DNA from: Candidatus Kapaibacterium sp. | GTDB lineage: Bacteria > Bacteroidota > Ignavibacteria > Kapaibacteriales > UBA2268 | Direction of reading: 5' to 3' | Assembly (NCBI GenBank): GCA_963664875.1 | Contig: OY761611.1 | Location: 1,728,001-1,792,000, forward strand | Length of the DNA stretch: 64,000 nt | Shown here: positions 4,009 through 46,918 of the stretch, one piece after another | Layout: every line of letters begins with the position of its first letter | How positions within the stretch are numbered: the stretch's first letter is position 1 | Notes under the pieces: generated by a model | Databases searched by the model: none | Told to the model about the DNA's origin: nothing | Seen by the model: the letters and a program-made list of their open reading frames with translations, nothing else | Made by a program: the position numbers and the translations under genes

Positions 4009-5406
4009 TTAGACAGTCTTTTTTTGTCGGTAGCTTTGCACATTAATATCGTATTTTCTGATTTTATTGTGCAAAGTTTCGCGGCTTACTCCAAGTAGAG
4101 CAGCAGACTTGCTTACATTACCTCTACATTGTTCCAATGTGGTTTCAATCTTCCTTTTATCGACCAAAGCCAAATCTTCTTTCAATGTATTACCTAATGA
4201 GATAGCGGGAGCTACAACTTGTGTTTCAATTGTTTGAGACGAATTGGAAATTATTCTGTGCAAATCGCTAACTTCTATCTGTTTTGTTGTAGCAGTCTGC
4301 AGAGTTACTCTTAGCACACTTGACAGCTCGCGTACATTGCCTCGCCAAGTTTGTTCCTGCATATAATCTAATGCAGATGGAGCAAAAAACTTTTCGTCGT
4401 TGAAATCTGCATTGTGTTTTTGCAGAAAGTATTTGATGATTTCAGGTATATCTTCCTGACGTTCCTGTAGTGATGGCAGGTGTATTTCACACTCTCTGAG
4501 TCGGTGATAAAGCTGCTCTCTAAAGTTGCCGTCTTTGATACCTTCAAGCAAATCTTTATCCGTTGCAGAAACAAATCTGATATCCATCTCTTCGCTTTGC
4601 ACGGAACCAACTTTTCTTACTACTTTTTCTTCGATTGGAATGAACAAATTTGATTGGAGACTAAGCGACATATCTCCTATCTCATCCAAAAATAAAGTAC
4701 CTTTGTTTGCCTGATGGAACAGACCTTTTTTATTTTCGGAGGCACCGGAGAAAGCCCCTTTTATATGCCCGAATAGCTCACTTTGAAATAGTTCTTTGGG
4801 AATATTAGGAATATCTACGGTTACAAACGGATATTTATTTCTACGGCTTGCAGCGTGAATAGCTTTTGCAACTAACTTTTTGCCTGTACCTGTTTCGCCG
4901 GTGATAAGTACATTAAGATCAGTTCTGCCGAAACGGATTATTCTGTCGCCAACGTCTAACATAGCTTTTGACCTTGCGATAATACCGTTGGCTTCCAAAA
5001 ATTTTCTAATTTCTTCTTCTTCACCCTGCTGCTTTTTGCCCAAGGCACTATTTAGCACTTCTTTGATTTTTTCTTTACTGATAATGCTTTTTTCAATAAA
5101 ATTCATAGCTCCGAGCTTGGTAGCACGTACTGCAGTTTCTATTGTACCCTTACCACTAACCATAACAACAGGCAAAGAAGGGTGTGATTTCCTAATAGCT
5201 TCTAACACGTCCAAACCGCTCAACTGTTCCTCAGGTCCAAACTCAATATCAAGCAGAACTATGCCGATAGAGCTATGATGCTTCGAAAGGTATTCAATAG
5301 CAAGAGTCGGTTTATAGATATTTTCATATTTATAACCAAAATCACTAACTATATCTGCTATGGTGGAACCAAATTCTACATTATCATCTACGATTAGAAC
5401 TTTCAT
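4009..5406 (-). CDS. Sigma54-dependent response regulator (NtrC family: REC-AAA+-Fis HTH)
   Basis: Receiver LIVDD...LLD, Walker A GETGTGK, SELFGH-GAFSGA, Walker B LFLDEIGDM, GNVREL, C-terminal AALLGVSRETLHNKI. Confidence 0.93.
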   Translation of the reverse strand: MKVLIVDDNVEFGSTIADIVSDFGYKYENIYKPTLAIEYLSKHHSSIGIVLLDIEFGPEEQLSGLDVLEAIRKSHPSLPVVMVSGKGTIETAVRATKLGAMNFIEKSIISKEKIKEVLNSALGKKQQGEEEEIRKFLEANGIIARSKAMLDVGDRIIRFGRTDLNVLITGETGTGKKLVAKAIHAASRRNKYPFVTVDIPNIPKELFQSELFGHIKGAFSGASENKKGLFHQANKGTLFLDEIGDMSLSLQSNLFIPIEEKVVRKVGSVQSEEMDIRFVSATDKDLLEGIKDGNFREQLYHRLRECEIHLPSLQERQEDIPEIIKYFLQKHNADFNDEKFFAPSALDYMQEQTWRGNVRELSSVLRVTLQTATTKQIEVSDLHRIISNSSQTIETQVVAPAISLGNTLKEDLALVDKRKIETTLEQCRGNVSKSAALLGVSRETLHNKIRKYDINVQSYRQKKTV

Positions 5407-5744
5407 ATTAGCTTTGCCCAATCTCGTTTTTCCGTACGATTCGAATTAGAAATGCAGTTACTATTCTTTTATTGTGTGCGTCCTGCATCAGAATTATTTT
5501 TTGTTGTAAGCTTGTTATTATAACAAATAAAACAGTAATATCAAAATGCTATTTTAGAGAATTTATAAAATACCATTTTGACTTATCAAATAAAAACATT
5601 TTTTAGATTTTTTGAATAAAACGACTTTGTTCGAGGATAAATATTCGGATTTTGCTATTTTATAAAATCAAATTAGTCATATTATTTTACACATTGAACT
5701 AATTATATAATTGTCCGTTTATTTACTCAAATAACTATACAGTA

Positions 5745-9893: not shown

Positions 9894-11756
9894 ATGAATA
9901 ATACTTTTGATATAATAGTTGTCGGAGGCGGACATGCCGGTATTGAGGCGTGTTTTGTAGCTTCCGGAATGGGCATGAAAACGGCACTGCTGACTATGGA
10001 TTTGAAAACCATGGGCAGGCCAAGTTGCAATCCGAATATAGGCGGCACTGCAAAAGGACATCTCGTTAAAGAAATCGATGCTCTTGGAGGAGCACAGGGA
10101 ATACTGGCAGACAGAGCCGGACTCCAGTTTAAAATGTTAAATATCTCCAAAGGTCCGGCGGTTTGGTCACCTCGAGCTCAGATAGATAAAGACCTCTACC
10201 CTCTTTATACCTACGATTTGCTACGTAAACGCAGCAATCTTACTCTAATCACGGGACAAGCAGCTGAGGTCATAATCAAAAATGACAGAGTTACGGGCTT
10301 GATAAGCAAAAATGGTGAAACATTTCACGCAAAAGCAGTTATACTCTGTGCCGGTACTTTCCTCAATGGTGTTATGTTTACCGGTAAAGAAAAATATGTC
10401 GGTGGAAGAAGAGGCGAACCTGCTGCAGATAAAATCTCTGATATGCTGCATTCTTACGGATTTGAAGTTGGGCGGCTAAAAACAGGGACTCCACCTCGAA
10501 TTTTGAATTCTTCTATTGACTACACTAAGGTTGAAAAAGAATATGGCGATGATTCACCACAGCCGTTTTCTATACACACACCACGTGTGAAAAACACAAT
10601 GATATGTTACTCTACTGCTACTCATTCGTTTACTCATGACATTTTACGTACGGGATTTGCTGACTCTCCGCTCTTCGGAGGAGATATTGAAGGCACAGGA
10701 CCACGCTACTGTCCATCTATAGAAGATAAAATAAACAGATTCGCAGGAAGAGACTCACACAAGATATTGTTAGAACCGGAAGGACTAAATACTAACTCGG
10801 TTTATGTAAATGGTTATTCGACTTCACTCCCTGCAGATGTTCAGCTGCAAGGACTAAGATCTATTCCGGGACTCGAAAGATGTGAAATGCTGTTGCCGGG
10901 TTATGCTATAGAATATGACTTCTTTTTCCCTTATCAACTAAAATTTACCTTAGAGACGAAAGCAGTTGCAGGGCTTTATTTTGCGGGACAGATTAACGGC
11001 ACTTCCGGCTACGAAGAAGCTGCCGCACAGGGACTCGTCGCAGGCATCAATGCAGCTCTGAAAATACAGGATAAACCGGAATTCAAACTTAAAAGATCAG
11101 AAGCTTATATCGGCGTTTTAATCGATGATTTAATAAATAAAAATACTGAGGAGCCTTATCGTCTTTTTACCTCTCTGGCGGAATATAGACTGCTACTCAG
11201 ACAAGATAATGCAAGAACAAGACTTTCAAAATATGGTCATTCTTTTGGCTTGGTCTCCGATTTACTACACGAAAAGCAAATGCGCTTTGACGAAAGAGTA
11301 GTAAGCGGATTTAACCGTACAAAAGAGGTCAAAATTAGACAAGAAGTTATCAATACTTATTTGGAAAAGCTCGAAGAAAGCACAGTTAATAAAACAGTTT
11401 CATTGTATGAAATGACCAAACGAAGTAAAGTGCAGCTCAACGATTTGCTGAACCTTGCAGATGACGATTCTGACATATTTGATTTGATGAAAAAGAAGGA
11501 AGAAATAACGAAAGCTATACAAATAGAAATCAAATATGAAGGCTATATACAGAGACAGAAAAAAGAAGTAGAGTATTTCCTTAAAAATGAGGATAAGCGA
11601 ATTCCTGATAGTTTTGACTATAACTCCGTGAACTCACTTTCAACTGAGGCTCGGGAAAAGTTGAATAAAATCAGACCTTACTCTCTCGGTCAGGCTTCAA
11701 GGATAGCAGGCGTTTCAGCAGCTGATGTATCAATCATTTCACTTTATCTGAAATAG
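9894..11756 (+). CDS. mnmG: tRNA uridine-5-carboxymethylaminomethyl(34) synthesis enzyme MnmG
   Basis: [52 protein letters not shown]. Confidence 0.98.
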
Positions 11757-11925
11757 TGTGTGCATTATTTGCAACATATTGGCTCATATTATTACACACT
11801 AAGATTGAATAAGAAGCGAGACCGATATTTTTAGGATGTGGAAAAATAATATGCAATGCCGTAAAGCTATTGATAGTCTATCTTTATAGGAAATTATAAA
11901 AAAAGTGCCAATATGAAATTTCAAA

Positions 11926-11942
11926 TTGGCACGTACATTGTA
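11926..11942 (+). promoter_or_regulatory. Sigma54-type -24/-12 promoter (forward), predicted start about 11953
   Basis: TTGGCACG-TACA-TTGTA versus consensus YTGGCACG-N4-TTGCW (GG-N10-GT). Confidence 0.65.
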
Positions 11943-11952
11943 CTTAATCTCA

Positions 11953-12038
11953 TACTCGAAAAAAGCTCCATTTTTATATGCCTGTTTTAATGGAGCTAAC
12001 TACCCCCGGGGGTCGCATTAGCGGCTCCCGCTTTTTTT
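11953..12038 (+). ncRNA. Candidate sigma54-dependent small RNA (sense)
   Basis: Lies between the predicted start site and the hairpin CGGGGGTCGC-ATTA-GCGGCTCCCG + T7; also contains the AGCTCCATT/AATGGAGCT hairpin. Confidence 0.5.
11959..12032 (-). ncRNA. Candidate antisense small RNA from the reverse sigma54-type promoter
   Basis: Predicted start about 12032; ends at the AGCTCCATT...AATGGAGCT hairpin, with a U tract on the minus strand (A6 at 11959-11964). Confidence 0.4.
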
Positions 12039-12042
12039 ATCT

Positions 12043-12059
12043 AACATATAGCATGCCAA
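12043..12059 (-). promoter_or_regulatory. Sigma54-type -24/-12 promoter (reverse)
   Basis: Minus strand reads TTGGCATG-CTAT-ATGTT (GG-N10-GT). Confidence 0.5.
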
Positions 12060-12085
12060 AAACCTAACAACTCTATCTTGTTTTA

Positions 12086-12098
12086 TATCAATATTTTA
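12086..12098. promoter_or_regulatory. IHF-like binding site
   Basis: TATCAATATTTTA is an exact match to WATCAANNNNTTR, just upstream of the reverse sigma54 motif. A one-mismatch copy lies at 11863-11875, upstream of the forward motif. Confidence 0.45.
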
Positions 12099-12339
12099 CA
12101 AAGCTGCCAATTAGTTTGATGACGTTTTTTTTGTTTATGGAAATTCAAACTTTACACTCCCTGTTGCTATGTAGTATTAAAAATGCTGCTTAGGCAATAG
12201 GTAAATATCAGCATCAAAATTCTATAAAATATAATAGGAGACACAAAATATTGCGGCTCCTACATAGTATTTAGGTATTTATAGCTTTGCTTCCAATGGA
12301 TTGGAATATATGAAATATTGGTTATACCGGTTTATTCTC

Positions 12340-13602
12340 TTAAGTCTTCTGCTTTTTCTTTTTAGCAGCAGGGAACAAAATATTATTTAATATTAGCCTA
12401 TATCCGGGGGAGTTTTTATATAGATTCAAATCCGTCGGAGGATCTCCGACAGCATGACGATAATCTTCGGGGTCATGTCCGCCATACCATGTAAAAAATC
12501 CCTTCCCGTAGTTACCATGAATATATTTGACTTCGTCAGTCCCTTCCCTTTCTGCCATGACAACTACCGAGTTCTTGATTTTGTCTTTGTGGAATGCTGT
12601 AGTTTGCCCCAAAAAGCCCTTTATGATATTTGCATGGCACTGTGTCAGCATTGTTGGAACCGGGTCGTATTTTGCAGAAAAATCAAACAAGGTAAAATAA
12701 TCTATCTCAGGATTAGCAATAGTTGAAGGACCAACATCAATATCTGAAAACTCGTATTCTGCAGGATTCATTATCAATCTGAAATTTTCAAATGCTAATG
12801 TTGCATCAAAATCTAATTTACTTTGCGCATTTTTGTCAGCAGGGTCACCGTCGAACATGTGCTCACATATATCTGTATGCTCAGCTGCAAGAGCGATATC
12901 ATAAGTATCTGTGCCACTGCACATTGCAAATAAGAAACCTCCTGCGTCTATAAATCGTTTTATTTCTTTGGCTACATCTAACTTCAACTTTGAAACTTTA
13001 TTGTAGCCGAGCGAGCTTGCCATACTTTCGTTTAAAGCCACCTGCTGCACATACCATGGTTGATTAGCCATATTAGCCCAGAATTTGCCGTACTGCCCTG
13101 TGAAATCCTCATGGTGTAAATGCAGCCAATCATATTCATTGAGCTTTCCTTCCATGACCTCTTTATCCCAAATAATATCGTGCTCTACCTGAGCATACTC
13201 CAAAGCAAGCCTTACCGCATCGTCCCATGGCTGAGCTCCCGGTGGTGCATAAACAGCAATTTTAGGAGCTTTTTCTAATCTTGCTACGTCAGTGTTACTG
13301 TCTTCTGCCTGTACCTCAGAGTAAATTGAAGCAGCAGAGGCAACAGAAATTTTCTCAAACATAACTCCGCGTATTCTGCATTCGGTTTCGATAGTAGCAC
13401 TGTAATCTGTCATAAAAGAGCCACCTCGATAGTTCAAAAGCCAATCCACCGGTTGATTGTTTTTAATTACCATAAAAGCAATGCCATAGGCTTTAAGATG
13501 ATTTGTCTGTGCCAAATCCATTGGGATCAGGATTTTTTGAGCAAAGCTTCCTATGCTCATAATCACAAGGAAAATAGGGATGAGATAGATTTTAAGTTTC
13601 AT
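12340..13602 (-). CDS. Exported class-I glutamine amidotransferase-like protein (family often auto-annotated as asparagine synthetase B in Bacteroidota)
   Basis: Signal peptide ending SFAQ, ILIPMD..Q.NHLKAYG, WLHLHHEDFTGQYGKF, GGFLFAMCS elbow, GGHDPEDY. Confidence 0.75.
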   Translation of the reverse strand: MKLKIYLIPIFLVIMSIGSFAQKILIPMDLAQTNHLKAYGIAFMVIKNNQPVDWLLNYRGGSFMTDYSATIETECRIRGVMFEKISVASAASIYSEVQAEDSNTDVARLEKAPKIAVYAPPGAQPWDDAVRLALEYAQVEHDIIWDKEVMEGKLNEYDWLHLHHEDFTGQYGKFWANMANQPWYVQQVALNESMASSLGYNKVSKLKLDVAKEIKRFIDAGGFLFAMCSGTDTYDIALAAEHTDICEHMFDGDPADKNAQSKLDFDATLAFENFRLIMNPAEYEFSDIDVGPSTIANPEIDYFTLFDFSAKYDPVPTMLTQCHANIIKGFLGQTTAFHKDKIKNSVVVMAEREGTDEVKYIHGNYGKGFFTWYGGHDPEDYRHAVGDPPTDLNLYKNSPGYRLILNNILFPAAKKKKQKT

Positions 13603-46501: not shown

Positions 46502-46918
46502 ATAACTAAATCCTTGTTTTTACTTATAATTGCTCTAAACACATAAGAGACTTATGTTTAGATATTTCAACCATACAAATTTAAAATTTTTAGGATTAAG
46601 CAGACAATTTAATTTACTGCTGTATGAACGCTAAAATAGGACTAAATGAGCATTTCAGGTATATGCTTTGTAGCAGATATGATATTATAATGGCTTAGAT
46701 TTAAGTATCTCAACAATCACAAACAAGATGAATGCCATAGATTTGACATAGCTTATAATCTATGTTTTGAGCGAAGCGAAAGTCAAGAATATTAAGACAA
46801 TGTAAAAGTGGAGTTAATATTGCCGCTAAGAAATACAAATAAATCAATATTACAATCCTATAACCGAGATAAATTTCCCTATATCTAAGATTTAATTGTA
46901 TTGTTTATGAAAAGCCGT

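What the first reader, a model, noticed from the sequence alone, without database searches (positions are those of the whole stretch)
11756..12160. Mirror-symmetric sigma54 cassette: two convergent promoters transcribing the same ~80-nt element as a sense/antisense sRNA pair
Seen in sequence: forward TTGGCACG-N4-TTGT (11926-11941; predicted +1 about 11953) and reverse TTGGCATG-N4-ATGT (12059-12044; +1 about 12032). Both have exact GG-N10 spacing and the same GT-for-GC deviation at -12. The two predicted starts fall at the two ends of a two-hairpin element. Hairpin 2 (12007-12030 + T7) depends on G-U pairs, so it terminates the plus strand only; hairpin 1 (11964-11997, preceded by A6) terminates the minus strand. 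Each promoter has an IHF-like site behind it (11863-11875 with one mismatch; 12086-12098 exact) and enhancer-like sequence further out (TGTGCATTATTTTGCAA and TCATATTATTACAC at ~11759-11797; TCAAACTTTACAC at ~12145-12157). Established: UAS-IHF-(-24/-12) is the canonical sigma54 layout, and sigma54-driven sRNAs exist (e.g. Vibrio Qrr). Inference: two activator-controlled, mutually complementary RNAs could form a titration or toggle switch integrating two signals. I do not recognise a described family.
Basis: partly seen in the sequence, partly recalled or inferred. Interest (0 to 1): 0.88.

Follow-up and report, generated by a model that had tools for sequence, protein, structure and literature searches.

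The report
Predicted sigma-54 small RNA with antisense promoter
Just downstream of the tRNA-modification gene mnmG, this uncultured Kapabacteria genus keeps a very conserved non-coding stretch that looks like a small regulatory RNA gene switched on by sigma-54, faced by a second sigma-54-type promoter that is intact in four sister species but worn down in this genome.

Summary
The motifs and hairpins are at the stated coordinates. The forward site (TGGCAC-N5-TTGT, 11927-11941) is well supported. In this genome TGGCAY-N5-TTG occurs 23 times in intergenic DNA against 0-6 at other spacings. T is the commonest base after TTG (11 of 23), so the "GT deviation" is the lineage norm. The site is invariant in 5 of 5 species of the genus. 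It is followed by a ~85-nt body (70 of 79 positions invariant) ending in a plus-strand terminator. rpoN and six activator genes are present.

The reverse site is weak here (ATGT at -12, within chance). In 4 of 4 sister species it reads TGGCATAAGCTTTGC, a canonical promoter at the same position. It is a conserved minus-strand terminator whose right arm is the forward -24 box.

The IHF-like and outer "enhancer" strings are not conserved. The better enhancer candidate is the conserved block 11837-11898. The element is restricted to the genus and matches no Rfam family.

No RNA data exist, so transcription on either strand is inferred. Verdict: a probable sigma-54-dependent sRNA gene. The convergent antisense promoter is plausible for the genus and doubtful in this genome.

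The parts
9894..11756 (+). mnmG (GidA). The element follows its stop codon in all five species of the genus.
   Evidence: Pfam GIDA 1.4e-147; synteny.
11757..11797 (.). Partly conserved block just after the mnmG stop. Role unknown (distal activator site or mnmG 3'UTR).
   Evidence: 76% mean pairwise identity, 22 of 41 positions invariant, followed by an unalignable stretch at 35%.
11837..11898 (.). Conserved upstream block, about -116 to -55 from the predicted plus-strand start. It is the best candidate for an activator (bEBP) binding or bending region. It begins with the ATGTGGAAAAATAA box, which starts one base earlier (11836-11849), and also holds AATAGTCTAT.TTTA.
   Evidence: 81% identity, 39 of 62 invariant. 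TGTGGA.AAATAA is kept in 5 of 5 species. ATGTGGAAA also lies upstream of 2 other strict sigma-54 sites, but this is not significant in an unbiased k-mer test.
11898..11932 (-). A7 tract plus hairpin H0 (GTGCCAAT...ATTGGCAC, 11905-11932). Read on the minus strand it is a hairpin followed by U7, an intrinsic-terminator shape. Its right arm is the forward -24 box.
   Evidence: Fold (-10.5 kcal/mol). 92% identity, 29 of 35 invariant. A6-A7 tract in 5 of 5 species. 10 of 11 pairs never vary.
11927..11941 (+). Forward sigma-54-type promoter TGGCAC-GTACA-TTGT (GG 11928-29, GT 11940-41). Predicted start about 11953.
   Evidence: Matches the motif enriched at N5 spacing in intergenic DNA. PWM 18.1 bits, rank 26. 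The -24 and -12 boxes are invariant while 2 of 5 spacer positions vary among the 5 species.
11953..12038 (+). Predicted plus-strand small RNA of ~85 nt: 5' leader with A6, hairpin H1 (11964-11997, 16-nt loop), C-rich linker, then hairpin H2 (12007-12030) plus U7 terminator.
   Evidence: Body 11953-12031: 94.6% identity, 70 of 79 invariant, against 75% for the last 600 nt of mnmG. Terminator found. H2 has one compensatory G-C to A-U change and a G-U pair kept in 5 of 5. Fold z-score -6.6. No Rfam match.
12044..12058 (-). Reverse sigma-54-like site TGGCAT-GCTAT-ATGT. Predicted start about 12032. It is degenerate here. Orthologous sites in 4 relatives read TGGCAT-AAGCT-TTGC.
   Evidence: In this genome PWM 11.5 bits, rank 289, with no class enrichment. 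The -24 box is 94% conserved and conservation stops right after it.
11898..12032 (-). Predicted minus-strand (antisense) RNA. It would run from ~12032 to the H1(-)+U6 terminator (~11958, ~75 nt) or on to H0(-)+U7 (~11898, ~135 nt). It would be fully complementary to the plus-strand RNA.
   Evidence: Inferred from the promoter and terminator geometry. The U-tract after H1(-) is 6 long in 3 of 5 species and 4 long in 2 of 5. No expression data.
12340..13602 (-). Convergent 420-aa ORF with no recognised family. It is present beside the element only in this genome. Its read-through would also be antisense to the element.
   Evidence: No Pfam or NCBIfam hit. Downstream genes in the 4 relatives are different and co-directional with mnmG.

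Best explanation
The conserved ~220-bp block 11837-12059 is a genus-specific small-RNA locus embedded in the 3' flank of mnmG.

Inferred plus-strand unit: an enhancer-binding protein bound in the conserved block around 11836-11890 activates sigma-54 RNA polymerase. The polymerase sits at TGGCAC-N5-TTGT (11927-11941). Transcription starts near 11953. It ends at hairpin H2 plus U7 (12038), giving an ~85-nt RNA. Its invariant H1 loop and C-rich linker are the likely working surfaces. These would serve for base pairing without Hfq, or for protein binding.

Inferred minus-strand unit: a second sigma-54-type promoter points back into the same DNA. It is canonical in the four sister species and weakened here. 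Its transcript would be perfectly complementary to the small RNA. It would stop at H1(-)+U6 or at the conserved H0(-)+U7, which overlaps the forward -24 box. I take this antisense unit to be a brake on the small RNA, acting by RNA duplex formation and by polymerase collision or occlusion of the forward promoter.

Shown: the motifs, their lineage-specific enrichment, the conservation pattern, the hairpins, and the presence of rpoN and bEBP genes.

Inferred: both transcription starts, activator dependence, and any function of either RNA.

My odds: forward sRNA unit real about 0.7; reverse promoter active in the genus about 0.5; reverse promoter active in this genome about 0.3. The confidence of 0.5 given for this explanation is for the whole picture at genus level.
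For: Sigma-54 machinery and motif in this genome:
- rpoN is complete, with AID, CBD and DBD domains. There are six strong Sigma54_activat genes among 10 matches.
- TGGCAY-N5-TTG occurs 23 times in intergenic DNA, against 0-6 at seven other spacings.
- 21 of these 23 sites lie within 450 nt upstream of a co-oriented ORF.
- The base after TTG is T 11, A 8, C 2, G 2.

Relatives:
- TGGCAYN5TTGY occurs 30-41 times per genome, against 6-11 for the reversed control.
- In each of the 4 relatives the two sites face each other 118 nt apart.

Forward promoter and sRNA body:
- The -24 and -12 boxes are invariant in 5 of 5 species, while the spacer and the -11..-1 region vary.
- The body is 94.6% identical, against 75% for mnmG coding sequence and 35-43% for the flanks.
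- A plus-strand terminator is present.
- H2 keeps a G-U pair in 5 of 5 species and has one compensatory pair.

Reverse promoter:
- It reads TGGCATAAGCTTTGC in 4 of 4 relatives.
- Conservation ends exactly at its -24 box, even between the near-identical pair G002 and G003.

Minus-strand terminator H0 plus A6-A7 is kept in 5 of 5 species, although 4 of 5 have no convergent gene.

Negative control: among 27 loci from other genera of the family, a strict site lies within 600 nt downstream of mnmG on the forward strand in 1 of 27 and on the reverse strand in 0 of 27.
Against: - There is no expression evidence for either strand.
- Covariation is nearly absent. 27 of 30 pairs never vary, one pair is compensatory, and 90 of 500 shuffles do as well. 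The hairpins therefore rest on thermodynamics and conservation.
- The forward -24 box is also the arm of hairpin H0, so part of its conservation could come from the hairpin.
- The reverse site in this genome has A at -15. Its PWM rank is 289, its class is not enriched, and convergent pairs at that score are at chance (4 against 2.8).
- No conserved upstream region lies behind the reverse promoter.
- Only about four independent lineages are available, because G002 and G003 are close.
- No activator could be assigned. The bEBP gene in the window is not linked to the element in relatives.
- The shared ATGTGGAAA motif fails an unbiased test.
- The target search gave nothing above shuffled controls.
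Confidence: 0.5

Rival explanations
1. Only the plus-strand sigma-54-dependent sRNA is real. The reverse TGGCA box would be a non-initiating site, for example poised holoenzyme or another protein acting as a roadblock or insulator just past the terminator. Alternatively it would be a relic. H0 would be a protein-binding inverted repeat or would stop stray antisense transcription.
For: - The reverse site is degenerate and within chance in this genome.
- No conserved upstream block lies behind it.
- H2 is a plus-strand structure.
- The body is equally conserved here, where the reverse site has decayed. The sRNA therefore does not need an intact reverse site.
Against: - In 4 of 4 relatives the reverse site matches the full promoter motif, spacing included, at one fixed position.
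- Such a match appeared on the reverse strand in 0 of 27 control loci.
- A minus-strand terminator (H0 plus U6-7) is conserved in 5 of 5 species, although 4 of 5 lack a convergent gene.
Confidence: 0.25
2. There are no internal promoters. The region would be the long 3'UTR of mnmG ending in a compound bidirectional terminator: A-tracts, three hairpins and a T-tract. The TGGCA strings would be incidental parts of hairpin arms or inverted repeats.
For: - No terminator lies between the mnmG stop and H2, so mnmG mRNA probably does run to 12038.
- A-tract, hairpin and T-tract geometry is present on both strands.
- TTGGCAC is an arm of H0.
Against: - Terminators do not normally keep loops and linkers invariant. 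Here 70 of 79 positions are invariant, against 75% identity for the coding sequence.
- The -12 TTGT lies outside any hairpin, is invariant, and sits at exact N5 spacing.
- The motif class is a validated promoter signal in this genome.
- It is absent downstream of mnmG in 26 of 27 other genera.
Confidence: 0.12
3. The block is a DNA-level protein-binding cluster and not an RNA gene. TTGGCA/TGCCAA half-sites at 11907, 11926, 12053 and 12106 would be bound by a dimeric regulator. Alternatively the ATGTGGAAAA box would act as a relaxed DnaA box (consensus recalled from memory).
For: - Four TGCCAA/TTGGCA copies lie within 200 bp.
- The reverse complement of ATGTGGAAA fits TTWTNCACA.
- TTTTCCACA occurs 25 times in intergenic DNA.
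Against: - This does not explain the invariant 75-nt hairpin body, the terminator with a compensatory change, or the exact N5-TTG spacing.
- The fourth copy (12106) lies in unconserved DNA.
- No DnaA-box cluster is present here. The only triple of perfect TTATCCACA boxes lies elsewhere, at genome position 2.36 Mb.
Confidence: 0.05

Closest known systems
Qrr sRNAs of Vibrio (sigma-54 plus LuxO dependent; Rfam RF00378)
   Same: A ~100-nt non-coding RNA gene. It is driven by a -24/-12 promoter with an upstream activator region and ends in an intrinsic terminator. It stands alone in an intergenic region.
   Different: - No homology: RF00378 scores 17.0 bits against a gathering score of 50, and on the opposite strand.
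- Single copy.
- The genome has no Hfq.
- A facing sigma-54-type promoter is not a Qrr feature (recalled).
- The lineage is Kapabacteria, not Gammaproteobacteria.
Other sigma-54-dependent sRNAs: GlmY/GlmZ, CrcZ/CrcY, NrsZ, Pxr (recalled; several appear in the listings)
   Same: The logic is the same: a two-component or bEBP signal is converted into a small RNA through a sigma-54 promoter.
   Different: No sequence or Rfam similarity. None is described, to my knowledge or in my searches, with a convergent sigma-54 promoter making the exact antisense.
sRNAs embedded at the 3' end of a gene with their own promoter, such as MicL or DapZ (recalled)
   Same: The element shares the terminator of the upstream gene (mnmG). 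It keeps that linkage in 5 of 5 species while the downstream genes change.
   Different: The promoter lies in the intergenic 3'UTR and not inside the coding sequence. It is of the sigma-54 type.
Convergent-promoter sense/antisense switches and the 'excludon' idea (prgQ/prgX of pCF10 recalled; PMC7154746, PMC5001618 and PMC6593788 seen only in the listing)
   Same: Two face-to-face promoters ~130 bp apart, overlapping transcripts, and expected interference by collision plus RNA pairing.
   Different: - Both promoters here would be activator-gated sigma-54 promoters.
- Both products would be short non-coding RNAs.
- Each would terminate at the edge of the other promoter.
- Nothing here has been demonstrated by experiment.
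Bidirectional intrinsic terminators between convergent genes
   Same: A-tract, hairpin and T-tract geometry. Hairpins H0 and H1 are usable on the minus strand and H2 on the plus strand.
   Different: Conservation is far above that of coding sequence, and the hairpins are flanked by promoter motifs. 4 of 5 species have no convergent gene.

Membership tests
Sigma-54 (RpoN)-dependent promoter: forward site 11927-11941 | Genome encodes a complete RpoN | tested here: met
   562-aa ORF with Sigma54_AID, CBD and DBD domains.
Sigma-54 (RpoN)-dependent promoter: forward site 11927-11941 | GG and the -12 element at fixed spacing, matching the organism's own promoter set | tested here: met
   TGGCAC-N5-TTGT. 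The motif is enriched only at N5 (23 against 0-6 intergenic). T follows TTG in 11 of 23 sites. PWM rank 26.
Sigma-54 (RpoN)-dependent promoter: forward site 11927-11941 | Conservation of both boxes in orthologous loci | tested here: met
   Boxes invariant in 5 of 5 species with a variable spacer.
Sigma-54 (RpoN)-dependent promoter: forward site 11927-11941 | Activator (bEBP) genes and an upstream activator site | tested here: inconclusive
   Six bEBP genes. A conserved block lies at -116 to -55. No dyad was found and no activator assigned. Motif sharing is not significant.
Sigma-54 (RpoN)-dependent promoter: forward site 11927-11941 | rpoN- and activator-dependent transcription start | not testable with these tools
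   No RNA run holds the locus.
Sigma-54 (RpoN)-dependent promoter: reverse site 12058-12044 | Match to the organism's own promoter set | tested here: not met
   In this genome the site is TGGCAT-N5-ATGT. The class TGGCAY-N5-VTG is not enriched (12 against 6-16). PWM rank 289.
Sigma-54 (RpoN)-dependent promoter: reverse site 12058-12044 | Conservation in orthologous loci | tested here: met
   The -24 box is kept in 5 of 5 species. The full TGGCAT-N5-TTGC is present in 4 of 4 relatives at one position. A reverse-strand site appeared in 0 of 27 control loci.
Intrinsic terminator | GC-rich hairpin directly followed by a U-tract | tested here: met
   Plus strand: H2 with 10 pairs (8 G-C) plus T7. 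Minus strand: H0 plus U7 and H1 plus U6, both weaker at about -10.5 kcal/mol.
Qrr RNA (RF00378) or any Rfam family | Score at or above the family's gathering threshold | tested here: not met
   9 matches at E up to 10, all far below threshold. The best was 20.5 bits against 52.7. Qrr scored 17.0 against 50.
Cis-encoded sense/antisense RNA pair | Both strands of the same DNA transcribed into discrete RNAs | not testable with these tools
   Only promoter and terminator signals on both strands are available. No RNA data.
Structured RNA supported by covariation | Compensatory changes in helices above control level | tested here: inconclusive
   1 of 30 pairs has a double change and 27 never vary. 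90 of 500 shuffles reach the observed value.

The most novel reading that the evidence does not exclude
A two-promoter sigma-54 toggle. Two activator-gated, face-to-face sigma-54 promoters ~130 bp apart would transcribe the same DNA into perfectly complementary 75-135-nt RNAs. Each RNA would terminate at the edge of the other promoter, and the minus-strand terminator would be built from the forward -24 box. Whichever promoter fires would silence the other by collision, promoter occlusion and RNA duplex formation. This genome would then show the circuit decaying or being rewired, after a convergent gene arrived next to it.
Probability: 0.2. Interest if true: 0.8.

Novelty: new variant of a known kind. 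Interest (0 to 1): 0.55.

Why it matters
Sigma-54-dependent small RNAs are known almost only from Proteobacteria and Myxococcus. This would be a predicted one in Kapabacteria, an uncultured class of the Bacteroidota/Chlorobi group. Nothing in the 15 Kapabacteria paper titles and abstract starts listed by my one search concerned transcription.

I found no described convergent pair of sigma-54 promoters producing an sRNA and its exact antisense (searches; listings only). If real, it would be a compact circuit. Because sigma-54 closed complexes are stable and silent until activated, it would be a clean natural case for studying transcriptional interference.

The work also gives a practical result. 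In this genus the -12 element is TTGT or TTGA far more often than TTGC. Standard sigma-54 matrices built on TTGC would therefore miss most of its regulon.

Tried and rejected
- Rfam at E up to 10 on 11500-12600: nothing near threshold.
- tRNA/tmRNA scan: none nearby.
- Expression: no RNA holder listed for the locus. Read laying was not used, because the listed runs are kept only as contigs of unrecorded library kind.
- Wider homologues:
  - A DNA search of 41 genomes found strong matches only in the genus.
  - Covariance model R1 on 130 family genomes found strong matches only in the genus. The two weak hits, in G041 and G130, are ordinary terminator-like hairpins in unrelated contexts.
  - The genome contigs pattern scan returned 4 records, apparently the four genus mates already found: same contig numbers, and their titles name Ca. 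Kapaibacterium or Chlorobiota.
  - One metagenome scan gave 0 hits and a second gave 2 unrelated hits.
- Small-protein reading: the ATG at 11980 opens a ~29-codon frame that runs through the terminator. The T-tract length differs between species, and the G002 changes are compensatory in RNA but non-conservative in protein. Rejected.
- Target prediction for the H1 loop, the linker and the 5' end against -50..+25 of 2,756 crude ORF starts: no better than 5 shuffles each.
- Activator assignment by synteny: the orthologue of the window's NtrC-type bEBP lies 19 kb or 233 kb away, or on another contig, in the 4 relatives.
- Shared upstream motif:
  - ATGTGGAAA occurs 66 times in the genome, 20 of them intergenic. 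5 copies lie at 3 of the 23 strict sites.
  - It also lies near 3 variant promoter-like sites.
  - An unbiased 8-mer test over 4,000 words does not single it out.
  - It also fits a relaxed DnaA box (consensus recalled). Kept as a lead only.
  - The genes behind those promoters are mixed: two flagellins, a flavodiiron-like protein, a CMD-family protein and Fe-S/CCG proteins.
- CsrA sponge idea: CsrA is present, but the plus-strand RNA has one GGA and it lies in a stem. Rejected.
- Supplements of PMC12316311, which may list phylum-specific sigma-54 matrices, could not be seen. I read only the passages. They give the consensus as TGGCACN5-7TTGCT, and neither 'sRNA' nor 'small RNA' occurs in that paper's main text.
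- Gene calls used for 'intergenic' are my own crude ATG-to-stop ORFs of at least 90 aa. The intergenic counts are therefore approximate.


Full report
**Setting**

The window is G000:C1:1728001-1792000 of a 3.83-Mb single-contig genome with 36% G+C. Record titles of the genus mates name it Candidatus Kapaibacterium, or Chlorobiota.

The finding lies in a 583-nt gap between two convergent genes:
- mnmG (9894-11756, plus strand; Pfam GIDA 1.4e-147);
- a 420-aa ORF (12340-13602, minus strand) with no Pfam or NCBIfam match.

**Observation**

One quoted string has one T too many.

Corrected coordinates:
- A7 tract: 11898-11904.
- Hairpin H0: 11905-11932 (GTGCCAAT...ATTGGCAC).
- Forward TGGCAC: 11927-11932. 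Forward TTGT: 11938-11941.
- Predicted plus-strand start: about 11953.
- A6 tract: 11959-11964.
- Hairpin H1: 11964-11997.
- Hairpin H2: 12007-12030.
- T7 tract: 12032-12038.
- Reverse ATGT: 12047-12044. Reverse TGGCAT: 12058-12053.
- Predicted minus-strand start: about 12032.

On the minus strand it is a hairpin followed by U7, and its right arm is the forward -24 box.

Folding:
- The 156-nt stretch 11890-12045 folds with z = -6.6 on the plus strand and -3.4 on the minus strand.
- H2 is -18.3 kcal/mol on the plus strand and -10.5 on the minus strand.
- H1 is -12.5 (plus) and -10.6 (minus). H0 is about -10.5 on both strands.
- The terminator scan finds only the plus-strand H2 plus T-tract: 2 overlapping calls against 0.6 +/- 0.9 in shuffles.

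**Is GT at -12 a deviation?**

No. rpoN is present and complete, and six strong bEBP genes exist.

I used my own crude gene calls (13% of the genome counted as intergenic). On these, TGGCAY-Nk-TTG falls in intergenic DNA 4, 3, 6, 23, 3, 0, 4 and 4 times for k = 2 to 9. Only the canonical spacing is enriched. Of the 23 sites at N5, 21 lie within 450 nt upstream of a co-oriented ORF. These ORFs include two flagellin genes and a rod-protein-like gene. The base after TTG is T in 11, A in 8, C in 2 and G in 2.

In the four sister genomes TGGCAYN5TTGY occurs 30-41 times, against 6-11 for the reversed-pattern control. Many promoters are orthologous and carry TTGT.

The forward site therefore fits the lineage consensus completely (PWM 18.1 bits, rank 26 of all positions).

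**The reverse site in this genome**

It reads TGGCAT-N5-ATGT, with A where all 22 training sites have T (by construction).
- It ranks 289, and only 79 of those 289 sites are intergenic.
- The class TGGCAY-N5-VTG shows no excess at N5: 12 intergenic against 6-16 at other spacings.
- Convergent pairs at that score number 4 against about 2.8 expected.

Taken alone, the reverse promoter of this genome is not evidence of anything.

**Comparative evidence**

A DNA search of 41 genomes (own genome plus 40 relatives) gave strong matches only in the 4 of 4 other species of the genus.

The alignments show one conserved block, 11837-12059, between unalignable flanks. Mean pairwise identity by region:

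| Region | Identity | Invariant positions |
|---|---|---|
| Last 600 nt of mnmG | 75% | 342 of 600 |
| 11798-11836 | 35% | 1 of 39 |
| Upstream block 11837-11898 | 81% | 39 of 62 |
| A7 plus H0 | 92% | 29 of 35 |
| Body 11953-12031 | 94.6% | 70 of 79 |
| Reverse -24 box | 94% | 6 of 7 |
| Beyond 12060 | 43% | 10 of 61 |

Within the forward promoter the two boxes are invariant, while 2 of 5 spacer positions and half of the -11..-1 positions vary. Conservation resumes at the predicted start.

In all four relatives the reverse site reads TGGCATAAGCTTTGC. That is a full match to the canonical consensus, at the same distance from the terminator. The alignment breaks immediately after it, even between the otherwise near-identical G002 and G003.

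Downstream genes differ. G002, G003 and G004 share one pair of co-directional genes, G001 has others, and this genome has the convergent 420-aa ORF. The element therefore travels with mnmG.

As a control, I examined 27 loci from other genera of the family (30 loci fetched, out of the 61 genomes matched). A strict site lies within 600 nt downstream of mnmG on the forward strand in 1 of 27 and on the reverse strand in 0 of 27.

A covariance model of the element hit only the five genus members among 130 family genomes. Two weak hits were unrelated hairpins. Public-collection scans added nothing.

**Structure evidence**

Covariation is almost nil. Of 30 modelled pairs, 27 never vary, one changes G-C to A-U, one changes U-G to U-A, and one is broken in one species. 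90 of 500 shuffles do as well.

A G-U pair in H2 is kept in 5 of 5 species. It would be an A-C mismatch on the minus strand, which fits H2 being a plus-strand terminator.

The minus-strand U-tract after H1 is 6 long in 3 of 5 species and 4 long in 2 of 5. The tract after H0 is 6-7 long in 5 of 5. H0 is therefore the conserved minus-strand stop.

Four of the five species have no convergent gene that could need this stop. A promoter inside the element is the simplest source of minus-strand transcripts.

**What it most likely is**

A genus-specific small-RNA locus, laid out in this order:
1. upstream activator region;
2. forward sigma-54 promoter;
3. ~85-nt RNA with two hairpins and a terminator, sharing that terminator with mnmG;
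4. a facing sigma-54-type promoter.

The facing promoter's product would be the exact antisense. It would end at H1(-) after about 75 nt, or at H0(-) after about 135 nt, across the forward promoter.

Each predicted RNA ends within a few bases of the region that a closed complex on the opposite promoter would cover. That geometry suits mutual interference. This is inference.

In this genome the reverse -12 region carries 7 substitutions in the 14 positions that are identical in the 4 relatives. I read that as decay or rewiring. It may be linked to the arrival of the convergent ORF, whose read-through would supply antisense RNA. That link is speculation.

**Function of the RNA**

Function is open.
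- There is no Hfq, one CsrA gene and two HU/IHF-family genes.
- A duplex scan of three candidate seed regions against crude translation-start regions was no better than shuffles.
- No activator could be assigned.
- The box ATGTGGAAAAATAA (11836-11849) is conserved in 5 of 5 species (with one change in two of them). Its core also lies upstream of the flagellin promoter (three copies) and of one other strict site.
- An unbiased word test does not support this sharing, and the box also fits a relaxed DnaA-box consensus (recalled). It is a lead only.

- The exact IHF string at 12086-12098 is expected about once per 4.8 kb of intergenic DNA and lies in unconserved sequence.
- The one-mismatch string at 11863-11875 is not kept in relatives.
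- The strings at 11759-11797 lie in a partly conserved block (76%).
- The string at 12145-12157 aligns only with G001. There it reads as a one-mismatch copy of the ATGTGGAAA box in reverse.

**Comparison with the known**

Sigma-54-dependent sRNAs are a known kind (Qrr, GlmY/Z, CrcZ, NrsZ, Pxr; recalled, and several appear in the listings). This one matches none of them and no Rfam family.

My searches (listings only) turned up no convergent pair of sigma-54 promoters making an sRNA and its antisense. I read passages of PMC12316311. That paper gives the consensus as TGGCACN5-7TTGCT, and 'sRNA' and 'small RNA' do not occur in its main text. Its supplements could not be seen.

**Verdict**

- Observation: partly confirmed.
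- Interpretation: partly supported.
- Odds: forward sRNA unit about 0.7; antisense promoter active in the genus about 0.5, and in this genome about 0.3; the full toggle idea about 0.2.
- Everything about transcription is prediction, because no RNA data hold this locus.

Noticed in passing
whole genome G000 and genus mates G001-G004: In this genus the sigma-54 -12 element is TTGT or TTGA far more often than the textbook TTGC. Among 23 intergenic TGGCAY-N5-TTG sites the next base is T 11, A 8, C 2, G 2. Relatives show the same bias. Standard TTGC-based matrices would miss most of the regulon.
   Followed up: partly
window 46724-46737 (-): Another strict sigma-54-type site (TGGCATTCATCTTG) lies 222 nt upstream of a co-oriented 502-aa ORF. 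Its long leader was not examined.
   Followed up: no
window 4009-5421 (-): An NtrC-type enhancer-binding protein (REC, AAA+ and HTH_8 domains) lies 6.5 kb upstream of the element. Its orthologues are not linked to the element in the 4 relatives.
   Followed up: yes
outside the window: G000:C1:1945244 (+) and 1945559 (-): A second convergent pair of sigma-54-like sites (PWM 15.3 and 14.9, 315 nt apart). It lies in the 1.1-kb gap upstream of a 5,645-aa ORF. The plus-strand site would transcribe antisense to that gene's leader. An ATGTGGAAA box lies 115 nt behind the minus-strand site.
   Followed up: no
outside the window: upstream of sigma-54 sites at G000:C1:1581901, 2133229, 2497210, 2547625: The word TCGACAAT (either strand) is the top shared 8-mer in the unbiased test: 4 of 23 upstream regions, Poisson p 2.4e-5, borderline after 4,000 tests. 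A related TCGACA repeat is visible by eye upstream of the site at 3420741. It is a candidate binding site of another activator.
   Followed up: no
outside the window: G000:C1:1714359 and ORFs 1714465-1717163: A near copy of the ATGTGGAAA box (within a GGAAAC-TTTCC palindrome) lies ~105 nt upstream of a bEBP gene, followed by a gene whose product carries a histidine-kinase-type ATPase domain (HATPase_c). This could be autoregulation and a lead to the activator that reads this box.
   Followed up: no
window 12340-13602 (-): A 420-aa ORF with no Pfam or NCBIfam match. It is not next to the element in any of the 4 relatives. Whether it is a real gene was not tested.
   Followed up: partly
outside the window: G000:C1:1841936 and 2903252: Two other strict sigma-54 sites also have an inverted copy of the -24 box (TGCCA) 15-20 nt upstream, as in hairpin H0 (by eye). 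That makes 3 of 23 sites. By my rough estimate, not a computation, fewer than one would be expected. The meaning is unknown.
   Followed up: no
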